Assembly: GCA_963776275.1 (NCBI GenBank)
Contig: CAVZMI010000029.1
Coordinates: forward strand, 1 to 64,000
Direction of reading: 5' to 3'
Length of the DNA stretch: 64,000 nt
Source: Ignavibacteriota bacterium
GTDB taxonomy: Bacteria; Bacteroidota; Ignavibacteria; UBA10030; CAVZMI01
The notes under the pieces are model-generated. The model did no database searches, was not told the DNA's origin, and saw nothing but the letters and a program-made list of their open reading frames with translations. This document shows, piece by piece, positions 4,939 through 31,390 of this stretch (positions are counted from its first letter, which is position 1; each line of letters starts with the position of its first letter). The position numbers and the translations under genes are program-made.

Positions 4939-5634
4939 TTACTCCTCCAGGTCGAAGAAACATCTCACATTATAAATTGCTGGAACAACCTCTTTTCGAA
5001 CGATCTTCTTTATTTCATTATTACTTCTATTCCCGGCGTTAATCATCGTAATATCAATCATATTATCCAGTCCAAGAAACGATAGGCTATAATCCTCATC
5101 ATATTCTTCTCCGACAAATCCTGGACTTGTCACATCCAATATCCACCCACACTCGAGTTCTTCATGACTTGTCATTGTGATATTATCCGTATTACACATC
5201 AAAGCTATATCCCAATACATACCCCATAATGTTCCGCGTATCATATGCATTATCAAAGTATCTGGCGATTCCATCCTCTCATCTTCTGGGTAATTTGGCC
5301 AAGCATAGTCCTCTTCTTCTTCCCGTCCACTGAGAAATATCTTATTTATATTGGCATACATTTGCCCGCTTTTGCCGGCATGATAAAAGTCCTTAAGTTT
5401 TTTTATTGCCTCTCTCAATTCTCTTAAAAGACTCTGAACTGCCGTATTGAGCACGGTCCGTAATTTTACATCATAAATTCCTCCAACCGAGAGAGTTATT
5501 CCACCCGTTGGCACTATATGAGATTCTTTTCTTGCCGATCCATTTCCGCTTAGTTCTATTCCACCAATATAAACCGGTGGATAATAGCTTCCGCCGAGGG
5601 CAACATTACCAACTATTTCTGTCCCAACAATCAT
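4939..5634 (-). CDS. Baseplate wedge (gpI-like) protein
   Basis: Likely start MIVGTE at 5634; position; C-terminal IKKIVRKEVVPA motif. Confidence 0.45.
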   Translation of the reverse strand: MIVGTEIVGNVALGGSYYPPVYIGGIELSGNGSARKESHIVPTGGITLSVGGIYDVKLRTVLNTAVQSLLRELREAIKKLKDFYHAGKSGQMYANINKIFLSGREEEEDYAWPNYPEDERMESPDTLIMHMIRGTLWGMYWDIALMCNTDNITMTSHEELECGWILDVTSPGFVGEEYDEDYSLSFLGLDNMIDITMINAGNRSNNEIKKIVRKEVVPAIYNVRCFFDLEE

Positions 5635-25478: not shown

Positions 25479-26454
25479 TCATCCTCCTGCTAAATAAGTT
25501 GTGTCGACATACAACCACTCCCTTTTACCCTGTCCTCCAACTTGTAGTTGTTGCTCTATCACAAGTGCCACTGTCATCAAACCTTGTACACCTGCAGCAC
25601 CCTCATACTTTCCTTCGCCATCGCCACTCATAATAAATCTTGCATCCCAGACCATACCGTTACCAGCTCTCATGATGTACCGTCTCATGATGGGTCTCAT
25701 CACGCGCATAATATCAGTGAACTTATCCCGCCGTGCCGGATTCCCAATACAGACCCATTCAACTTGGAAGGCATCTATATCGCTCTCACCTTTTACTATT
25801 TGATCATTATACTCTGCAATGAAACTTGAAAAATATCGTTCCGCTATCTGTCCAGGTAATCGGCTGACAACGACAAAAAAATCTTCATCTTTAACCGCAG
25901 AATAATTTTTCATAACTCGAAGATTCTTAGGGATCTCCGGTTTTTGACCTTGCAGTGAACGAACGGCATCGATGGCTTTCTCCACTGCCCTGACAATCAG
26001 CGATTTTCCATCCACCGCATATATCTTGATCTGCGCTTCCGGGATGATACTAAGATCGATTGTGGATGAGGGTTTGTTCCACTTTTTATCTCTTATCATA
26101 GCTCGATAGAAATATTCTTTTCCGTTTTCTACTGAATAATCGACAATCCATGTATGCGCATTATCGAGATCTCTGAAAACAAATATTCCCAGATCTGCTA
26201 ATTGCCCATCACTCAATTCATCATCAAAATATTCCTCGATGTTTTCATTCGAAGGGTTTGCTCCCTGTTTCTTGAAAATATAGACCTGCCATACTTCAGG
26301 AAGATTTGTTGGCAATGTCCAATTCAGTTGGATTTCTCCACCATGTGGATCAGAGTTCGCTGTAAATGATTCCAGCGGATCTGTATCATCTCTTGTAACC
26401 ACGAGATAAAATATGAAGTGAAAAATTTTAGGGCGGCTCCTCAACTGGAGCCAT
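25479..26454 (-). CDS. Tail terminator/neck protein with N-terminal FN3-like domain (probable 1-nt indel near 26432)
   Basis: ORF 25479..26444; ATG at 26454 (MAPVEEPP) joins this frame if one C of CCC is removed. Confidence 0.55.
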
Positions 26455-26459
26455 GAGAG

Positions 26460-26499
26460 AAGTTATTCTCAAAATAGGTAATTATTACCGTGATAATGG
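26460..26499 (-). promoter_or_regulatory. Putative activator-dependent late promoter (copy 1)
   Basis: CCATTATCACGGTAATAATTACC-11 nt-TAACTT. Confidence 0.65.
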
Positions 26500-26566
26500 G
26501 AATTTAAACGAAAAATTTTCTTGACATTAATGTATAATATTATGAGATTCACGCATTATACTACTA

Positions 26567-26920
26567 ATGGAGCCTACCATGAAACCACGAATCACGTCTG
26601 TATTAATTGCATTTCTCTCGCTATTTTTTCTTATAGCTCAATTAGATGCCGGTCAATGCAAAGCCATAACAAAGAAGGGAACCCAATGTAAACGAGAAGC
26701 GGTTTCCGGTTCTGACTATTGCTGGCAACATGGGGGCTCAAAAAAGAACAATTCATCAGTTTCCTCAAAATCCACCGATCAGTCTCCTGCGACTAAACAA
26801 TCTAAAAAAGAGACAACCATCGGTACTACGGCAACCGGCAAATCCTTATATCAAGGACCGCGTGGAGGTGTATATCATTATAGTAAAAGTGGAAAAAAGG
26901 TATATCATAAAAGAAGGTAG
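26567..26920 (+). CDS. Small secreted protein (DUF5763-like Cys/His motif + PBCV basic adaptor-like tail); moron
   Basis: Signal peptide; CKAITKKGTQCKR..YCWQH; GPRGGVYHYSKSGKKVY. Confidence 0.7.
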   Translation: MEPTMKPRITSVLIAFLSLFFLIAQLDAGQCKAITKKGTQCKREAVSGSDYCWQHGGSKKNNSSVSSKSTDQSPATKQSKKETTIGTTATGKSLYQGPRGGVYHYSKSGKKVYHKRR

Positions 26921-26928
26921 GCTAATTT

Positions 26929-27153
26929 ATGAAACTATCTAAAGATATTCGTGATTTACTACTCTGTTTGTTAATTGCGATTTCTGTAATATTCATATTT
27001 CAAACTTGCAGTAAGGATAGTAATCCAACCTCATCCGGGGATTGTCCAAACGGAAGAAGTGGAGCGGTTTGCAACGATGGGACAACAAGTTCGGCGACGG
27101 GGAGTGGTGCTTGCTCAAAACATGGAGGTGTTAATCACTGGCTATGTAAATAA
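26929..27153 (+). CDS. Small DUF3761-like secreted/lipoprotein; moron
   Basis: GAVCNDGTTSSATGSGACSKHGGV..W. Confidence 0.7.
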   Translation: MKLSKDIRDLLLCLLIAISVIFIFQTCSKDSNPTSSGDCPNGRSGAVCNDGTTSSATGSGACSKHGGVNHWLCK

Positions 27154-27183
27154 ATATAAAATCCTCTCCATCCTTTCATCTTT

Positions 27184-28062
27184 TTATTCCGCAGCAAGTC
27201 CGGCTTTCTGGAAGGCGTCTTTGACGGCTTTTGCCAGCATCCCATAGAATTCTGTTTTCACTGAATTAATCGCCTTTTCAGCAATATGCGATGCCTGGAT
27301 CCCGGGATGTATCCACGCTTGGGGATCGGAGTTCTCGGATATTGTCCTGAATGATGAATACCGAGATCCGGAACCCGGACCAGCCTTGAATCTTACAATA
27401 TTCTCAAAAGGTGATGTTTTCCATGTGTACCGTACTGATCCTGTTGGCTCCCCGCCGCGAGGATATAGAGTCTGGCTCCCAGGTTTCCCCGCTCCCGATC
27501 GGGCCAGATCTCCTGTGACCGGAAAGACTTTCGATCGTCTGCCCAGATCTCCCATCCCCTTCAGCCGGCCGCCCCAGTCATATGAGCGCTGATCGCCCCG
27601 GGCCGTGTTTCTTATTATTGTGGTAATCCTACTTTCTCTCAAACCCCGGGCGCCCTCATACACTCCGGCTTCTTTGAGTTCGGATGTCGAATGTTCAAAA
27701 GGTATATGGATATATCTTTTTCCATCTTTCCCTACTTTTACCTTTGCACTCGTGCTCAACATTTTCTTGAGATCGAATGGTTGAACACCTTCCTCCAGAT
27801 ATTTCGCTGCAACATGTCTATTGACCACGAAAAATTGTAGTGGATCATGCTCGAATGGATATTCAATTCCTTCATCGATCTTTTGAATGTAGCCCCCGGG
27901 TCTTTTGAGGGCTGTCGCCGCTTCTTTGTGCCACGCCTGCACTAAAACCCCATAGCCGAAAGCCTCGACCTCACGCTCCAACTGCTCCTTCAATCCTTCA
28001 ATTGCACTAACCAGATTTTCGAAAGGGGTGATATCGATAAAATATGAGAGTCGGATATCCAT
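27184..28062 (-). CDS. Neck/tail-completion protein (SPO1/Twort-like)
   Basis: PFDLK..L; GKRYIHIPF.H; FRTISENSDPQAWIHPG. Confidence 0.7.
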   Translation of the reverse strand: MDIRLSYFIDITPFENLVSAIEGLKEQLEREVEAFGYGVLVQAWHKEAATALKRPGGYIQKIDEGIEYPFEHDPLQFFVVNRHVAAKYLEEGVQPFDLKKMLSTSAKVKVGKDGKRYIHIPFEHSTSELKEAGVYEGARGLRESRITTIIRNTARGDQRSYDWGGRLKGMGDLGRRSKVFPVTGDLARSGAGKPGSQTLYPRGGEPTGSVRYTWKTSPFENIVRFKAGPGSGSRYSSFRTISENSDPQAWIHPGIQASHIAEKAINSVKTEFYGMLAKAVKDAFQKAGLAAE

Positions 28063-28086
28063 TATTAATATTTCTATGTGAATAAC

Positions 28087-28115
28087 TTGCTTTTTAAAAT
28101 GAATATAGCTATACT
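28087..28115 (+). promoter_or_regulatory. Sigma70-type promoter for RHH-tnpB, leaderless start
   Basis: TTGCTT-17 nt-TATACT, then 6 nt to ATG at 28122. Confidence 0.65.
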
Positions 28116-28121
28116 ATCTAT

Positions 28122-28253
28122 ATGAGAATCTTCCAAATTTATCTGACCAAACCTCAGATTGCGGCACTTAAAAAGCTCTCAGAGAAACTCGATCTAAGCA
28201 TTGCCGAGCTCGTGCGTCGTGCCATTGATATGTTCTTGGAACAACAAAAATGA
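28122..28253 (+). CDS. Ribbon-helix-helix (CopG-like) protein, 43 aa (not in ORF track)
   Basis: MRIFQIYLTKPQIAALKKLSEKLDLSIAELVRRAIDMFLEQQK; ATGA overlap with tnpB. Confidence 0.8.
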   Translation: MRIFQIYLTKPQIAALKKLSEKLDLSIAELVRRAIDMFLEQQK

Positions 28254-29389
28254 GACGCACATTTCAATATCGAGTTCAACTTTCTAAAACTAATGAAGCG
28301 AATTGTCTCAGATGGTTAGAGCAATGCCGAATTCTCTACAACCTTGCTCTTGAACAACGTATTACCATCTATCGACAAAGCAGAAAATCCCTTTCTTGTT
28401 ACGATCAAATAAAACAGTTGCCCGAACTCAAAAAAGAGTTTTCCGATTTCAAACAGGTTGATTCTCAATGTTTGCAGGATGTTCTTGAACGACTCGATAA
28501 AGCATTTAAAGGATTCTTTCGGCATGTCAAACAGGGTAAAGCTGGATTTCCACGCTTCAAGTCTTTTGGAAGATATGATTCCTTCACGTTGAAACAATGC
28601 AGTTGGAAACTCAATATTAGAAATCTTACCATCAAAAATATCGGAGTTCTCAGCCTTCGTCTCTCCCGGCCGATCGAAGGCCGTATCAAGACCATTACAA
28701 TTCGTCGAACTCCAACCGGCAAATGGTTCGCCTGTTTCTCCTGTGATGAGGTTCCCGTTCGAAGCTTTCCGATAACCACGGCCGAAGTGGGTATCGATGT
28801 TGGTAGCAGAACATTTTGTACAGACTCCGATGGATTCAGTATTCCCAATCCAAAATATTTGAAACAGGGGCAAGCTGATCTCCGACGCAAGCAGCGTCGC
28901 CTTGCCAGGCGTGTCAGAGGCTCGCAACGCAGGAAGAAAGCACGGATGCTTGTAGCTAAGGCCCACGAGAAAGTAGCCAATCAGCGGAAAGATTTTCTTC
29001 ATAAGTTGGCGAACGACTATATAAGAAAATACAAAACGATCCATATTGAGGATCTCAATATTCAAGAAATGGTAAAAGGAATTAAAGGCAATACGAAATA
29101 CATCGGCAAATCCGTGGCCGATGCCGGATGGGGTGAATTCTTTCGAATGCTCTCGTACAAAGCGGAAGAAGCTGGTCGAGTCATTGTTAGAGTTCCCTCG
29201 AAGGATACGACAACCACCTGTTCCCGATGCGGCGTTGCTGTTCCAAAATCTCTTACCATTCGTATTCATCGATGTCCCTCTTGTAATCTTAAAATCGGCC
29301 GTGACCTAAATGCGGCTCTGAATCTTTTAAGGGTCGGGCAGACCCTTCAGGCGTCAACGTGGGCTGATGTAAGGCCGTGCGTTGCCTGA
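28250..29389 (+). CDS. tnpB: RNA-guided endonuclease TnpB (IS200/IS605 family), RuvC D-E-D intact; no tnpA nearby
   Basis: GFPRFKS; VGIDVG; IHIEDL; CSRCG..CPSC zinc finger; RDLNAALN. Confidence 0.95.
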   Translation: MRRTFQYRVQLSKTNEANCLRWLEQCRILYNLALEQRITIYRQSRKSLSCYDQIKQLPELKKEFSDFKQVDSQCLQDVLERLDKAFKGFFRHVKQGKAGFPRFKSFGRYDSFTLKQCSWKLNIRNLTIKNIGVLSLRLSRPIEGRIKTITIRRTPTGKWFACFSCDEVPVRSFPITTAEVGIDVGSRTFCTDSDGFSIPNPKYLKQGQADLRRKQRRLARRVRGSQRRKKARMLVAKAHEKVANQRKDFLHKLANDYIRKYKTIHIEDLNIQEMVKGIKGNTKYIGKSVADAGWGEFFRMLSYKAEEAGRVIVRVPSKDTTTTCSRCGVAVPKSLTIRIHRCPSCNLKIGRDLNAALNLLRVGQTLQASTWADVRPCVA

Positions 29390-29445
29390 GAATCTCGGCG
29401 TTTTTAAAAGCATGGGAATGTCAAAGCCTCTCATATTTCATAGCC
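29329..29445 (+). ncRNA. TnpB omegaRNA (5' limit uncertain); right end TGTCAA at 29419-29424, guide from ~29425
   Basis: Hairpins aagggtc..gaccctt and tcaggc..gcctga, then GAATCTC..GGGAATGTCAA, typical of IS605 right ends overlapping the tnpB 3' end. Confidence 0.75.
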
Positions 29446-29447
29446 GA

Positions 29448-30281
29448 TCATAAATCGTTGTCCAAGAATCTGTCGTTCGTTTCAAATACATCTTGTTTGG
29501 TGTCTACTGTGTCGATCGGATTTGTCAACTTATTGAAAAATGCACGCTTCACCGTCATAACCATTTTCGGAAGATCATTTTCTTCCGTAGCCCGGGCTTT
29601 CGCCAGTTCTTCCCAAACGATGTAGTTTGGTGAGCACAAAAATTCGACGGCATAATCTGCACCCACGGCCGGCGCCTTACTGTCCTCTGTCTCTAACCAT
29701 TCGACTTCTATATCCGAGACCACAGGCATATCCGCCGACGCCGAAATCTGTACTGTCCCATCCGACAATATTACGGTAGTAGGTTCGGTTCCATTGACCT
29801 TAATTTTATAGTCAGTCCCATATATGTATCGGAGTTCGAATTTCTCGGCGTTCACACTCACGAGAGACAAAATGCTCTTTACGTCAAAGGCAAAGATCAC
29901 ATCTTTTTTCCCTCTGGTAAGAACATCGAAATCTCTGATGGGCTTGTTCTTGATAACAATAATATCGCCTTTGAATATGCGATCGTAAATTGTCAGCCGC
30001 TTAAATTCACCTTCGACCCATTCCACTGGAGGTATCGAGAACCGCGCACCACCCTCATAAATCTTCCCCGCTGGCCGCGTAATGATATGATAGCTTACAG
30101 AAGTTCGGATCAATCTTACCTGGACCGGGTCATCATATTTGTATCCATGAATTGCATCGGCATCCGCCATAGTTAATCCATGCCTGAGTTCAGGCGACAA
30201 TTTGGATTGATACCATAGGCATTCGACTCCGAATTGTCGGATCAATTTCTGTACTTTGCTATTCGATAATATTTTTCTCAT
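29448..30281 (-). CDS. Head-closure/neck protein
   Basis: LIRQFGVECLWYQS; C-terminal ENDLPKMV; position. Confidence 0.6.
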   Translation of the reverse strand: MRKILSNSKVQKLIRQFGVECLWYQSKLSPELRHGLTMADADAIHGYKYDDPVQVRLIRTSVSYHIITRPAGKIYEGGARFSIPPVEWVEGEFKRLTIYDRIFKGDIIVIKNKPIRDFDVLTRGKKDVIFAFDVKSILSLVSVNAEKFELRYIYGTDYKIKVNGTEPTTVILSDGTVQISASADMPVVSDIEVEWLETEDSKAPAVGADYAVEFLCSPNYIVWEELAKARATEENDLPKMVMTVKRAFFNKLTNPIDTVDTKQDVFETNDRFLDNDL

Positions 30282-30289
30282 CGCCGGTC

Positions 30290-31390
30290 CTATACTACAG
30301 TTATTTCGTAACCGATACCATATTCCCTCTTCATTTCCTCAGTCCACTTCGTTTCATCCTCGCGCAAATCTTTGAGCAGTCGATCAATACCCGATGACTC
30401 CGAACTGCTCACTCCATCCATCGACAAACTCTGAGAAATCAAGCGTACCTTCGCATCAATCTTAGGCAATATTTCAATAAGTGCGTTCCGGCCGATTGCT
30501 CTGCGAATTGCTTCTTTCTTTGCATCATCTAATGTCGGGAAATCCAGACCATGCGTATACTCGATCCGGAATAGTTGCGGGACACGACTGTATATCCCTC
30601 CCTGCATAATTGTTAGCCCGAGACCATTCATCGCACCAATCAGTATTGAATACAGGGAGCCGGACATGGCTGTCGGCAAGAATTCTATTATACCCATCTT
30701 CTTGTCTATTACCAGCTGGTCAGCAATATTCGGGATAAGCTCAGCTTGCTGACTGCCGTATACCAACTTGAAGGAATCAACACTAATGAGCGGCCGGCAA
30801 TCTACCTGCTGCAGCCAGAATTCTGTCTTGAAATCCTGCAAATAGTAATCGCGTTTTATTGAGTCTTTGGACTTAAAAAATTTCATCTTTATTCTATTTT
30901 CAAGCTCTCCCTGTGAAGCGAGAAGCGTATTTCTCATACTATCCCGATCTTCTTTTACATATGATTCGACGGCATCCTTATAATCGTCATCCAACTTCGC
31001 ATCTGCGGCTATGTATTGACTTAGGAATATCGATACCGGCATAATTTCTGCCCGAACGCCATTTGTATCTCCAACAGTAATTAATCTGATATCCTGAGGC
31101 ACATTCGATTGATCAATAAGAACGTTGATTTCTTCGTTTTGGACATTCCAGTAAATGCGATAATAACCAGGTCTCGTATTTTGAGAGAATATTACATCGA
31201 TGTAGTATTGATTTTTATCTTCTGCATCATCGAATGTAGCTTCCTTGTCTTTGATCTCTTCACTCTGATCATCGAGGGCCACGGCTCCATCCTCGCCGTA
31301 AATGCTTGCGGTGACAGTAAGGTCTGCCACCGCCGCATTCGCATCTTCGAGATAGAATCTATTCGTACCTTGAAGAGCCAATGTTTTCAT
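30290..31390 (-). CDS. Head-tail adaptor with N-terminal Ig-like extension
   Basis: PQLFRIEYTHG; SQSLSMDGVSSS motifs of SPO1-like adaptors. Confidence 0.65.
   Translation of the reverse strand: MKTLALQGTNRFYLEDANAAVADLTVTASIYGEDGAVALDDQSEEIKDKEATFDDAEDKNQYYIDVIFSQNTRPGYYRIYWNVQNEEINVLIDQSNVPQDIRLITVGDTNGVRAEIMPVSIFLSQYIAADAKLDDDYKDAVESYVKEDRDSMRNTLLASQGELENRIKMKFFKSKDSIKRDYYLQDFKTEFWLQQVDCRPLISVDSFKLVYGSQQAELIPNIADQLVIDKKMGIIEFLPTAMSGSLYSILIGAMNGLGLTIMQGGIYSRVPQLFRIEYTHGLDFPTLDDAKKEAIRRAIGRNALIEILPKIDAKVRLISQSLSMDGVSSSESSGIDRLLKDLREDETKWTEEMKREYGIGYEITVV

What the first reader, a model, noticed from the sequence alone, without database searches (positions are those of the whole stretch)
28035..29447. 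Orphan TnpB whose guide is a recoded, inverted copy of the neighbouring neck gene start: candidate RNA-guided homing / phage-competition nuclease
Seen: after the omegaRNA right end (TGTCAA, 29419-29424) the predicted guide reads AGC CTC TCA TAT TTC ATA G (29425-29443). The gene on the other side of the cassette (27184..28062, minus) begins ATG GAT ATC CGA CTC TCA TAT TTT ATC G. Positions 28035-28053 match the guide at 15/19 nt, with 11 contiguous. Two mismatches are synonymous third positions (TTC/TTT, ATA/ATC) and two fall in the TAM-proximal codon (AGC/CGA). The RuvC D-E-D triad is intact and no tnpA is present. Known: in IS200/IS605 elements the guide is simply the right flank and matches the empty donor site in the same orientation. 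Inference: this guide was captured from an allele of the conserved neck gene, and the resident allele escapes through seed mismatches. TnpB would then cut related co-infecting phages next to its own locus, like intronless homing endonucleases. An alternative is mismatch-tolerant binding that regulates the resident neck gene.
Basis: partly seen in the sequence, partly recalled or inferred. Interest (0 to 1): 0.88.

Follow-up and report, generated by a model that had tools for sequence, protein, structure and literature searches.

The report
Flipped TnpB element in phage gene
A transposon-type RNA-guided nuclease (TnpB) sits inside the start of a phage virion gene, turned around together with a few bases of its original insertion site, so the gene still works and the guide RNA is aimed at the uninterrupted version of that gene in related phages.

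Summary
In detail: 29425-29443 matches the minus-strand start of the neighbouring gene at 15 of 19 bases. On its own this is only mildly unusual.

A cassette-free relative (L006, metagenome contig, flanking proteins 83-89% identical) explains it. In L006 the gene start reads TCGGATAT followed directly by AGCCTATCATATTTT. On the window's plus strand, TCGGATAT (28051-28058), the element (28059-29424) and AGCCTCTCATATTTC (29425-29439) follow each other in that order. This is a standard IS200/IS605-type insertion with no target duplication.

The whole block, however, lies inverted inside the gene. Direct copies of both flanks remain outside it. The new ATG comes from the element's left end.

So the guide is the ordinary right flank, which equals the vacant site. 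It was not captured and recoded. The resident allele lacks the adjacent motif and guide positions 1-3, so it should be immune.

TnpB keeps D-E-D, is under purifying selection (dN/dS 0.13 against a second copy), and has a conserved omegaRNA that ends at 29424.

The most likely role is RNA-guided homing into, or exclusion of, cassette-free relatives. This is untested: the TAM is only inferred, and both known vacant alleles carry a seed mismatch.

The parts
27184..28062 (-). It resembles SPO1 gp7.1 and its function is unverified. Its first 4 codons are new; from codon 5 on it is native.
   Evidence: ORF. No Pfam family. PHROG families of unknown function. tblastn hits SPO1 gp7.1 and relatives at 25-28% identity. 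Relatives P0002 (86%) and L006 (85%) start MIGY(N/S)LSYFID, against MDIRLSYFID here.
28035..28053 (-). Resident near-target of the guide (15/19). It has mismatches at guide positions 1, 3, 15 and 18, and the adjacent 5' motif is changed.
28039..28050 (-). Direct (native) copy of the 12-mer CTCTCATATTTT, which forms codons 5-8 of the resident gene.
   Evidence: Aligns with L006 1431-1442 within the 85%-identical block.
28051..28058 (+). Flipped TAM-side flank TCGGATAT. It is an inverted copy of ancestral codons 2-4 and is now read on the minus strand as part of codons 2-4 (D-I-R) of the rebuilt gene.
   Evidence: 8/8 identical to L006 1420-1427, which directly abuts the target in L006. Chance at a fixed position is 3.7e-5.
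28059..29424 (+). The element proper: left end, RHH gene, tnpB, and omegaRNA / right end finishing in GGGAATGTCAA.
   Evidence: Absent from L006. The right boundary is set by the end of homology with copy 2 and with viral and genomic relatives.
28059..28121 (+). AT-rich left end with no significant hairpin. The reverse complement of its first bases supplies the new ATG (28062-28060) of the virion gene.
   Evidence: Sequence. DNA fold z-score is +0.87, with 167 of 200 shuffles folding at least as well.
28122..28253 (+). 43-aa ribbon-helix-helix (CopG/Arc-like) gene. Its stop overlaps the tnpB ATG, and it occupies the place that tnpA holds in the canonical relative L016.
   Evidence: Pfam RHH_1 E 3.6e-7. 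PHROG repressor families. L016 has Y1 TnpA in the same position.
28250..29389 (+). tnpB (379 aa), resembling ISDra2 TnpB, with an intact RuvC D183/E267/D352.
   Evidence: Pfam. PDB 8EXA/8BF8/8H1J at E about 1e-55 with aligned catalytic motifs. 76% aa identity to copy 2. dN/dS 0.13 over 375 codons.
29290..29424 (+). omegaRNA scaffold. The 5' limit is approximate.
   Evidence: Conserved blocks and 16 predicted pairs, 7 of them with compensatory changes, in 7 sequences. Similarity stops at TCAA/TCAC. No Rfam family matches.
29425..29439 (+). Guide core AGCCTCTCATATTTC. It is the flipped target-side flank, an inverted copy of ancestral codons 5-9. The transcribed guide probably runs 1-4 nt further into 29440-29443.
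   Evidence: 13/15 to L006 1428-1442, differing only at third codon positions. Chance is 1.2e-5. A guide length of about 16 nt is taken from ISDra2 (passages read).
29440..29451 (-). Relict of the ancestral gene start, ATGATCGGCTAT. It still overlaps the stop of the upstream gene and now opens only a 6-codon frame.
   Evidence: Aligns with L006 1416-1427, where the same ATGA overlap starts the gene.
29448..30281 (-). Upstream virion-module gene (277 aa). In relatives it is translationally coupled to the next gene.
   Evidence: 88% aa identity to L006 583-1419. Stop and start are adjacent or overlapping in L004, L006, L007 and L008.

Best explanation
This is a TnpA-less IS200/IS605-family element made of left end, RHH gene, tnpB and omegaRNA.

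It once inserted in the canonical way, 3' of ...GGATAT and 5' of AGCCTC..., between codons 4 and 5 of the virion gene and in the gene's sense orientation.

The element was then fixed in the opposite orientation, together with 8 nt of its left flank and 15 nt of its right flank. The route was either an inversion with staggered breaks or the reverse-orientation insertion of a donor fragment into an intact allele.

Direct copies of the flanks stayed outside the block. As a result the gene regained a start: an ATG from the element's left end, then the flipped 8-mer, then native codons.

Because the flipped block keeps the order motif | element | target, the omegaRNA guide is the sequence of the uninterrupted ('vacant') gene start.

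Inferred function: in a cell that also holds a cassette-free relative, TnpB-omegaRNA cuts that relative about 15-21 bp into the target. Repair from the cassette-bearing genome then copies the cassette in, or the rival is simply destroyed. The resident allele is safe because the junction replaced the adjacent motif and guide positions 1-3. The RHH protein probably represses the cassette's own promoter.

Shown: the anatomy, the ancestry of the flanks, the intact and constrained TnpB, and the omegaRNA end. Inferred: the TAM, cleavage, homing, and how the flip arose.
For: (1) L006 lacks the cassette and is syntenic. The upstream, central and downstream proteins are 88%, 85% and 83% identical. Its DNA aligns to window minus strand 30281-29444 and 28052-27499.

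(2) The plus strand reads 28051-28058, then the element, then 29425-29439. This equals L006 1420-1427 and 1428-1442, which are contiguous in L006, at 8/8 and 13/15. Chance values are 3.7e-5 and 1.2e-5. The two guide differences are at third codon positions.

(3) Every base at both junctions is accounted for: the relict ATGATCGGCTAT, the flipped 15-mer, the element, the flipped 8-mer and the native 12-mer. AGC occurs only inside the block.

(4) The right end at 29424 is fixed in three ways. Homology with copy 2 runs exactly from 28250 to 29424. Viral relatives and three copies in genome G135 all end in GTCAA or TCAC. There is covariation in 7 of 16 pairs.

(5) TnpB matches ISDra2 TnpB at E about 1e-55 with D-E-D present. 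dN/dS is 0.13 against copy 2.

(6) The only two TnpB genes in the assembly lie on this phage contig. Neither guide has a target of 15/16 or better anywhere else in the assembly.

(7) Established knowledge, from passages read: the guide is about 16 nt of right-flank DNA, the TAM equals the TnpA target motif, the cut is staggered at 15-21 bp, and vacant sites are cleaved and refilled by recombination.
Against: - No cleavage, RNA or population data exist. No sequencing run was listed.
- The TAM is inferred only from the junction (...GATAT). ISDra2 uses TTGAT. In the 60%-identical G135 elements, 2 of 3 copies have TTAC outside the left end. If this TnpB needs such a motif, the vacant allele would not be cut.
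- Both known cassette-free alleles carry a mismatch in the TAM-proximal part. L006 has one at position 6 and another at 15. P0002 has Asn for Ser at codon 5, which implies a mismatch at position 2 (protein only). No perfect target was found.
- The left end has no significant hairpin, and the sense-oriented intermediate would have interrupted the gene.
- Only one genome shows this arrangement. Of the 12 right ends validly examined, no other has its best guide match at the far border of its own cassette.
- dS between the copies is near saturation (pS 0.61), so dN/dS is rough.
Confidence: 0.55

Rival explanations
1. Historical scar. The anatomy is as described, but the cassette is now an immobile remnant. 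The guide matches the vacant site only because that is where the element landed. TnpB no longer cuts anything relevant, and the arrangement persists because removing it would damage the gene.
For: There is no TnpA on the contig. The left end has no hairpin. No perfect target exists among the two known vacant alleles. Only one genome has this arrangement.
Against: The ORF is intact at 379 aa with D-E-D. dN/dS is 0.13 against copy 2. The omegaRNA terminal stem is kept. The RHH gene is translationally coupled and intact. A dead cassette of 1.4 kb inside a virion operon would be expected to decay or be lost.
Confidence: 0.3
2. The guide binds the resident gene start despite mismatches and regulates it, in the manner of TldR.
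For: The 15/19 similarity lies at the gene's 5' end. Domesticated TnpB repressors, some phage-encoded, are known (PMC10705468, search listing and start of abstract only).
Against: The catalytic triad is intact, unlike nuclease-dead repressors. Mismatches fall at guide positions 1 and 3, and the adjacent motif is shifted. The similarity is fully explained as a rearrangement scar. The guide and the mRNA have the same sense, so no RNA-RNA pairing is possible.
Confidence: 0.05
3. Chance similarity or a mis-assembly of the metagenome-assembled contig.
For: 13/16 matches are common genome-wide, at 28 sites. No reads could be laid on the region.
Against: The two flank matches to L006 sit at fixed, adjoining positions with a joint chance far below 1e-8. 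The repeats at the junctions are 8-15 nt, which I take from general knowledge to be shorter than typical assembly k-mers. The gene frame is exactly restored. The relict start still overlaps the upstream stop.
Confidence: 0.04

Closest known systems
IS200/IS605-family TnpB-omegaRNA elements (ISDra2; Geobacillus ISGst), which cut the vacant 'donor joint' and are restored by recombination
   Same: ISDra2-like TnpB with an intact RuvC. The omegaRNA overlaps the 3' end of tnpB. The guide is the DNA just beyond the right end. The 5' flank and 3' flank are contiguous in the vacant site, and there is no target duplication.
   Different: There is no TnpA; an RHH gene sits in its place. The left end has no hairpin. 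The element and both short flanks lie inverted inside the target gene, which is thereby repaired. The vacant site can therefore exist only in other genomes, not in a sister chromosome after excision.
Free-standing homing endonucleases of T-even phages (Seg, Mob): intronless homing and marker exclusion
   Same: A nuclease gene wedged between conserved virion genes. The predicted target lies in the neighbouring conserved gene of nuclease-free relatives. The resident allele is protected by sequence differences at the target (concept as described in PMC13565253, passages read).
   Different: Recognition would be by an RNA guide plus a short motif, not by protein. Immunity comes from a rearrangement junction rather than from point substitutions. 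No co-infection data exist.
IStrons (IS605/IS607 fused to group I introns)
   Same: They solve the same problem: a TnpB element inside a gene without killing it (PMC10690162, search listing and start of abstract only).
   Different: There is no intron here: no Rfam match in 27800-29700. The gene is rescued at the DNA level by inversion and a new start codon, not by splicing. The element is antisense to the gene.
TldR, nuclease-dead TnpB-derived RNA-guided repressors (some prophage-encoded)
   Same: A TnpB-family protein without a transposase in a phage context, with a guide related to a nearby gene.
   Different: The catalytic D-E-D is present. There is no matching target in the same genome.

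Membership tests
IS200/IS605-family TnpB-omegaRNA element | TnpB with the RuvC D-E-D triad and a C-terminal zinc-ribbon/TNB domain | tested here: met
   Pfam OrfB_IS605 at 1.5e-26 and Cas12f1-like_TNB at 2.3e-21. Alignment to ISDra2 TnpB structures with GIDVG, IEDL and RDLN in register. Positions are D183, E267 and D352. The ISDra2 residue numbers D191/E278/D361 are recalled, not taken from a call.
IS200/IS605-family TnpB-omegaRNA element | omegaRNA scaffold overlapping the 3' end of tnpB and ending at the right end | tested here: met
   The alignment of 9 sequences loses all similarity after TCAA/TCAC. There are 16 consensus pairs in 7 sequences, 7 of them with compensatory changes. Rfam has no matching family. 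No RNA data were available.
IS200/IS605-family TnpB-omegaRNA element | The guide is the right-flank DNA, contiguous with the left flank (TAM) in the vacant site, with no target-site duplication | tested here: met
   28051-28058 and 29425-29439 equal L006 1420-1442, which is contiguous there. This holds on the element's own strand, which is inverted relative to the gene.
IS200/IS605-family TnpB-omegaRNA element | Y1 (HUH) TnpA transposase in the element | tested here: not met
   The cassette holds only RHH and TnpB. The 9 Y1_Tnp matches in the assembly are all on other contigs. TnpB-only elements are recognised members of the family (passage read).
IS200/IS605-family TnpB-omegaRNA element | Subterminal hairpins at the left and right ends | tested here: inconclusive
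   The left end 28051-28125 folds no better than shuffles (z +0.87). The G135 relatives have a perfect 9-bp left-end hairpin. The right-end region is structured as omegaRNA.
Free-standing homing endonuclease (intronless homing) | Nuclease gene inserted between conserved genes and absent from close relatives | tested here: met
   L006 has the two virion genes overlapping by ATGA with no cassette. L004, L007 and L008 also have them adjacent.
Free-standing homing endonuclease (intronless homing) | Cuts the nuclease-free allele near its own locus, while the resident allele is resistant | not testable with these tools
   Sequence only. The guide matches L006 at 16/19 with its first 5 bases perfect and the same 8-nt 5' flank. 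It matches the resident at 15/19 with mismatches at positions 1 and 3 and a changed flank. No cleavage data exist.
Free-standing homing endonuclease (intronless homing) | Biased inheritance or co-conversion in mixed infection | not testable with these tools
   Only one cassette-bearing genome and one cassette-free DNA sequence are available.
TldR (nuclease-dead TnpB repressor) | Loss of RuvC catalytic residues, and a guide matching a promoter or 5' region in the same genome | tested here: not met
   D-E-D is present. The best off-self match is 14/16.
IStron | Group I intron fused to the element, co-oriented with the host gene | tested here: not met
   No Rfam match at E up to 1 in 27800-29700. 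The element is antisense to the gene.

The most novel reading that the evidence does not exclude
The flip was made by TnpB's own staggered cut. The target-side flank carried with the element is 15 nt, which is the non-target-strand cut distance reported for ISDra2 TnpB. The next 6 bases of the target, ATCGAT, are a palindrome, which would give self-complementary overhangs. On this reading, TnpB elements that land in essential phage genes can re-orient together with their motif and target. They would thereby turn into gene-compatible, free-standing RNA-guided homing endonucleases that drive through phage populations and exclude cassette-free relatives, an RNA-guided counterpart of Seg/Mob intronless homing.
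Probability: 0.2. Interest if true: 0.8.

Novelty: new variant of a known kind. Interest (0 to 1): 0.6.

Why it matters
TnpB homing has been shown for vacant sites left by excision in the same cell. Its use against homologous sites in co-infecting phages has only been discussed as a possibility (PMC13565253, passage read).

This locus is a natural arrangement in which the second use is the only one left. The element cannot excise, because it has no TnpA. Its guide matches nothing in its own genome. The only place the target can exist is a cassette-free relative.

The locus also shows a DNA-level way for such an element to live inside an essential gene: inversion together with its flanks, plus a donated start codon. 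IStrons solve the same problem by splicing.

If cleavage is confirmed, it would link transposon-type and phage-type homing. It would also give a compact nuclease whose TAM and target are defined by nature.

Tried and rejected
Searches for more relatives of the virion gene.
- IMG/VR gave no relative.
- INPHARED phages gave 51 records, all below 60% identity.
- The host family gave 0 of 2 other genomes.
- GTDB genome contigs gave 2 loci at 47% and 28%.
- JGI metagenomes gave 9 loci, of which only L006 is close.

Sequencing runs. None was listed for 26500-31000 and no RNA holder was listed.

Rfam. No match.

Structure of the virion protein. AlphaFold from 10 sequences gave pLDDT 54. This is too poor for a fold search, so none was run. 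The 'neck' label stays unverified.

Vacant site of copy 2. A search with its DUF5131 neighbour found nothing closer than 53%, so its boundaries and TAM stay open. A GATAT lies 12 nt before the DUF5131 stop, but using it as the boundary would fuse DUF5131 and the RecU-like frame. I do not rely on it.

Left-end homology with the canonical relative L016. MAFFT did not align the two left ends convincingly. A shared 11-mer just before the first gene is noted only in passing.

Guide scan of other cassettes. 13 right ends were scanned. For L022 the script took a motif occurrence inside tnpB, so that row is invalid. L024 (a duplicate of L023) and L026 (no right end recognised) were left out.

Promoter and terminator scan. 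Nothing above shuffles.

Rejected ideas.
- A same-orientation flank on the gene's strand. Joining the present flanks gives a 6-codon frame, not the L006 gene start.
- Direct-orientation descent of the new start from the old one. This needs a 4-nt deletion, a 1-nt insertion and substitutions, whereas the inverted-block reading needs none.
- Target-primed reverse transcription. The strands at the junction do not fit.
- RNA-RNA pairing with the mRNA. The two have the same sense.

Paper supplements were not requested.
Full report
**What is there.**
The stretch 28063-29447 lies between two minus-strand virion-module genes, 29448-30281 and 27184-28062. On the plus strand it carries two genes:
- a 43-aa ribbon-helix-helix gene at 28122-28253 (Pfam RHH_1, E 3.6e-7);
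- a 379-aa tnpB at 28250-29389 (OrfB_IS605, Cas12f1-like TNB, HTH).

TnpB aligns over almost its whole length with the solved ISDra2 TnpB (8EXA, 8BF8, 8H1J; E about 1e-55). The three RuvC motifs are in register, which places the catalytic residues at D183, E267 and D352.

The assembly holds only two tnpB genes, both on this 93-kb contig. All nine Y1-transposase matches are on other contigs. The 'orphan TnpB' statement therefore holds.

**The observation.**
The 19 nt after TGTCAA match the reverse complement of 28035-28053 at 15/19 with 11 contiguous. This is the only such site on the contig apart from the guide itself.

On its own the match is modest evidence. For the 16-nt guide, the 3.70-Mb assembly contains 28 sites at 13/16 and 3 sites at 14/16. 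Among 12 validly examined right ends (this cassette, copy 2 and 10 ends in viral loci), the usual best off-self match in 5-9.5 kb is 11-12/16, and one other reaches 13/16. What stands out is that the match sits at the other border of the same cassette.

**Where the omegaRNA ends.**
A second copy lies outside the window at contig positions 73232-74392. It is 74% identical in DNA and 76% in protein. Its homology with the window runs exactly from the tnpB ATG (28250) to ...GGAATGTCAA (29424), after which the sequences are unrelated.

Three further lines agree:
- Viral-contig relatives (33-62% protein identity, 12 loci) share the same 3' blocks and lose all similarity after TCAA or TCAC.
- So do three copies in genome G135, which are 60% identical in protein.
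- A consensus fold of 7 sequences has 16 pairs, 7 with compensatory changes, and the window keeps the terminal stem.

Rfam has no matching family.

**The cassette-free relative.**
A protein search found one close relative of the virion gene, P0002 (86% identity, protein only). All others were at or below 47%.

One JGI metagenome contig, L006 (4,866 nt), encodes an 85%-identical protein. It is syntenic on both sides: the upstream gene is 88% identical and the downstream gene 83%.

L006 has no cassette. The stop of the upstream gene overlaps the start of the virion gene (ATGA). The gene begins ATGATCGGATAT, followed by AGCCTATCATATTTT and then ATCGAT. More distant relatives (L004, L007, L008) also have the two genes abutting.

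A global alignment places L006 586-1423 on window minus strand 30281-29444 (82.6% identity). It places L006 1429-1982 on 28052-27499 (85.4% identity).

**The anatomy this reveals.**
On the window's minus strand, the sense strand of the gene, the order is:
1. the upstream gene's end, with the old start still attached (ATGATCGGCTAT, 29451-29440);
2. GAAATATGAGAGGCT, the reverse complement of the guide's first 15 nt;
3. the reverse complement of the element;
4. ATATCCGA;
5. CTCTCATATTTT, then ATCGAT and the rest of the gene.

On the plus strand, the element's own strand, the same bases read TCGGATAT (28051-28058), then the element (28059-29424), then AGCCTCTCATATTTC (29425-29439). In L006, TCGGATAT and AGCCTATCATATTTT are directly adjacent at 1420-1442.

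The matches are 8/8 and 13/15, at positions that leave no freedom of choice. Random position pairs in the contig reach these values with frequencies 3.7e-5 and 1.2e-5 (2,000,000 trials). The two differences in the 15-mer are at third codon positions, as expected for a copy of a coding allele.

On its own strand, then, the element shows the textbook IS200/IS605 signature: 5' flank | left end ... right end | 3' flank, with no target duplication, and the guide equal to the right flank. This matches the passages of Karvelis et al. 2021 read and the preprint of Meers et al. read.

The unusual feature is that the block of 8 nt, element and 15 nt is inverted relative to the gene it interrupted. Direct copies of the 8-mer (as TCGGCTAT, 7/8) and of the last 12 nt of the 15-mer (CTCTCATATTTT, 11/12) remain outside the block. 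AGC is found only inside it. No base at either junction is left unexplained.

The new reading frame is built from three sources:
- the ATG and the following G come from the reverse complement of the element's first four bases;
- the rest of codons 2-4 (D-I-R) come from the flipped 8-mer;
- the native frame runs from codon 5 (L-S-Y-F-I-D...) and is identical to P0002 and L006.

CGA is the flipped TCG. ATAG is the flipped relict CTAT.

**How the flip arose (inferred, unresolved).**
Inverted duplications at both ends of an inverted segment are the recognised signature of inversion through two staggered breaks. I cite Ranz et al. 2007 (PMC1885836) from its search listing only; the three search terms occur in its abstract.

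The same picture would result if a donor fragment (8 nt, element, 15 nt) from a sense-oriented insertion had been ligated in reverse into an intact allele, replacing AGC. The two flank copies differ at 2 of 20 positions. This fits either two alleles or later drift.

The first junction has a 2-nt microhomology (AT) and the second has none.

Two coincidences may implicate TnpB's own staggered cut. I rate this only as the bolder reading.
- The target-side flank is 15 nt, which is the non-target-strand cut distance reported for ISDra2 TnpB.
- The following six bases, ATCGAT, are a palindrome.

The sense-oriented intermediate would have interrupted the gene. An in-frame GTG 16 codons upstream inside the right end could in principle have allowed expression, but that is speculation.

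**Function.**
Shown by sequence:
- TnpB is intact and constrained. dN/dS is 0.13 over 375 codons against copy 2, with dS near saturation.
- The omegaRNA is intact.
- The RHH gene is intact and its stop overlaps the tnpB start. It sits exactly where the canonical relative L016 has a Y1 tnpA.
- Neither guide has a target of 15/16 or better in the assembly other than its own DNA.
- The resident allele differs from the guide at positions 1, 3, 15 and 18, and its 5' neighbour is ...ATATC instead of ...GATAT. The relict start is followed by unrelated sequence.

The only place a motif-plus-target can exist is therefore a cassette-free relative. I infer that the cassette works as an RNA-guided homing or exclusion nuclease in mixed infections, or between a prophage and a superinfecting relative. 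A distant relative of the virion gene lies in a 1.19-Mb Ignavibacteriota contig, so the group may be temperate.

Unlike a plain insertion, the product of homing would be viable, because the block carries its own repair of the gene. The review PMC13565253 treats this 'non-restorative' use of TnpB against co-infecting phages as theoretical (passages read). My two searches for TnpB in phages listed no paper that describes such a case. I saw titles and starts of abstracts, plus passages of two papers.

**Against this reading.**
- The TAM is inferred from the junction alone. ISDra2 uses TTGAT. In the G135 elements, 2 of 3 copies have TTAC just outside a left end that carries a perfect 9-bp hairpin.
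- The window's left end has no significant hairpin.
- Both known vacant alleles have a mismatch in the TAM-proximal half. L006 has one at position 6. P0002 has Asn at codon 5, which implies position 2 (protein only). That TnpB needs a roughly 12-nt matched seed is recalled, not taken from a call.
- No perfect target, no RNA data and no second cassette-bearing genome were found.
- The contig comes from a metagenome assembly and I could not check reads.

These points keep the functional claim near even odds. I hold the structural reading with high confidence.

**Comparison and novelty.**
The element works like, and by four of six tested features is, an IS200/IS605-family TnpB-only element. Its predicted behaviour is that of a free-standing phage homing endonuclease.
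- It is not a TldR, because the triad is intact.
- It is not an IStron, because it has no intron and is antisense to the gene.

Three things are new: the inverted block that keeps motif, element and target together; the rescue of the host gene by a start codon donated by the left end; and the resulting restriction of the guide's target to other genomes.

I rate it a new variant of a known kind.

Paper supplements were not requested; TAM tables in the supplements of the TnpB papers might bear on the inferred motif.

Noticed in passing
contig positions 73232-74392 (outside the window; locus L002 1501-2661, minus strand): A second TnpB cassette on the same phage contig, 76% identical in protein. 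It lies between a DUF5131 (Gp37/Gp68) gene and a RecU-like gene and is co-oriented with them. In place of the RHH gene it has an unrelated 68-aa ORF with no Pfam match. The last A of its right end completes an ATG in the RecU-like frame. Its vacant site and TAM could not be determined.
   Followed up: partly
window 26445-27183: About 740 bp with two plus-strand ORFs lie between the virion gene and the next minus-strand gene: 26567-26920, and 26929-27153 (a DUF3761-like small Cys-rich protein with a signal or lipoprotein-like N-terminus). L006 has only about 50 bp here. This is a second opposite-strand insertion (a moron) in the same operon.
   Followed up: partly
window 27437-27496 (residues about 187-205 of the virion protein): The resident protein has an insertion of about 16 residues rich in Gly, Pro and Ser (292 aa against 277 aa in P0002 and L006). 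The insertion lies in a region that varies among all relatives.
   Followed up: no
window 28316-29269, minus strand: A 317-aa ATG-initiated ORF lies antisense to tnpB, on the strand that late virion transcripts would have to cross. Copy 2 has no long antisense ORF (the longest is 105 aa), so it is probably spurious. A cyanophage preprint (10.64898/2026.02.14.705889, passages read) reports a translated reverse-strand ORF in another tnpB.
   Followed up: partly
L016 2615-4134 and about 5020-5110: A viral contig carries a canonical IS605 (Y1 tnpA overlapping tnpB, 50% identical to the window's TnpB) right after a portal-like gene. About 1 kb downstream there is a solitary tnpB-3'-end/omegaRNA remnant ending in the same GGAGAGTGTCAA, possibly a stand-alone guide locus. 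The 11-mer GCTATACTATC just upstream of its tnpA is also found just upstream of the window's RHH gene.
   Followed up: partly
L015 3125 and 3237; L017 952-1077; L021 2856-3053: L015 has two right-end-like termini 112 nt apart. L017 has a 41-aa zinc-ribbon ORF whose end overlaps the tnpB start. L021 has a 65-aa ORF with an RHH-like N-terminus upstream of tnpB, but no Pfam hit. Small DNA-binding genes in the tnpA position may be a recurring feature of phage-borne TnpB cassettes.
   Followed up: partly
G135 loci L028, L033, L035: A genome of the same order holds three TnpB-only elements, about 87% identical in DNA to each other and 60% identical in protein to the window's TnpB. They have a perfect 9-bp left-end hairpin and right ends in GTGTCAA. 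In 2 of 3 copies, TTAC lies just outside the left end. One copy has an in-frame TGA.
   Followed up: partly
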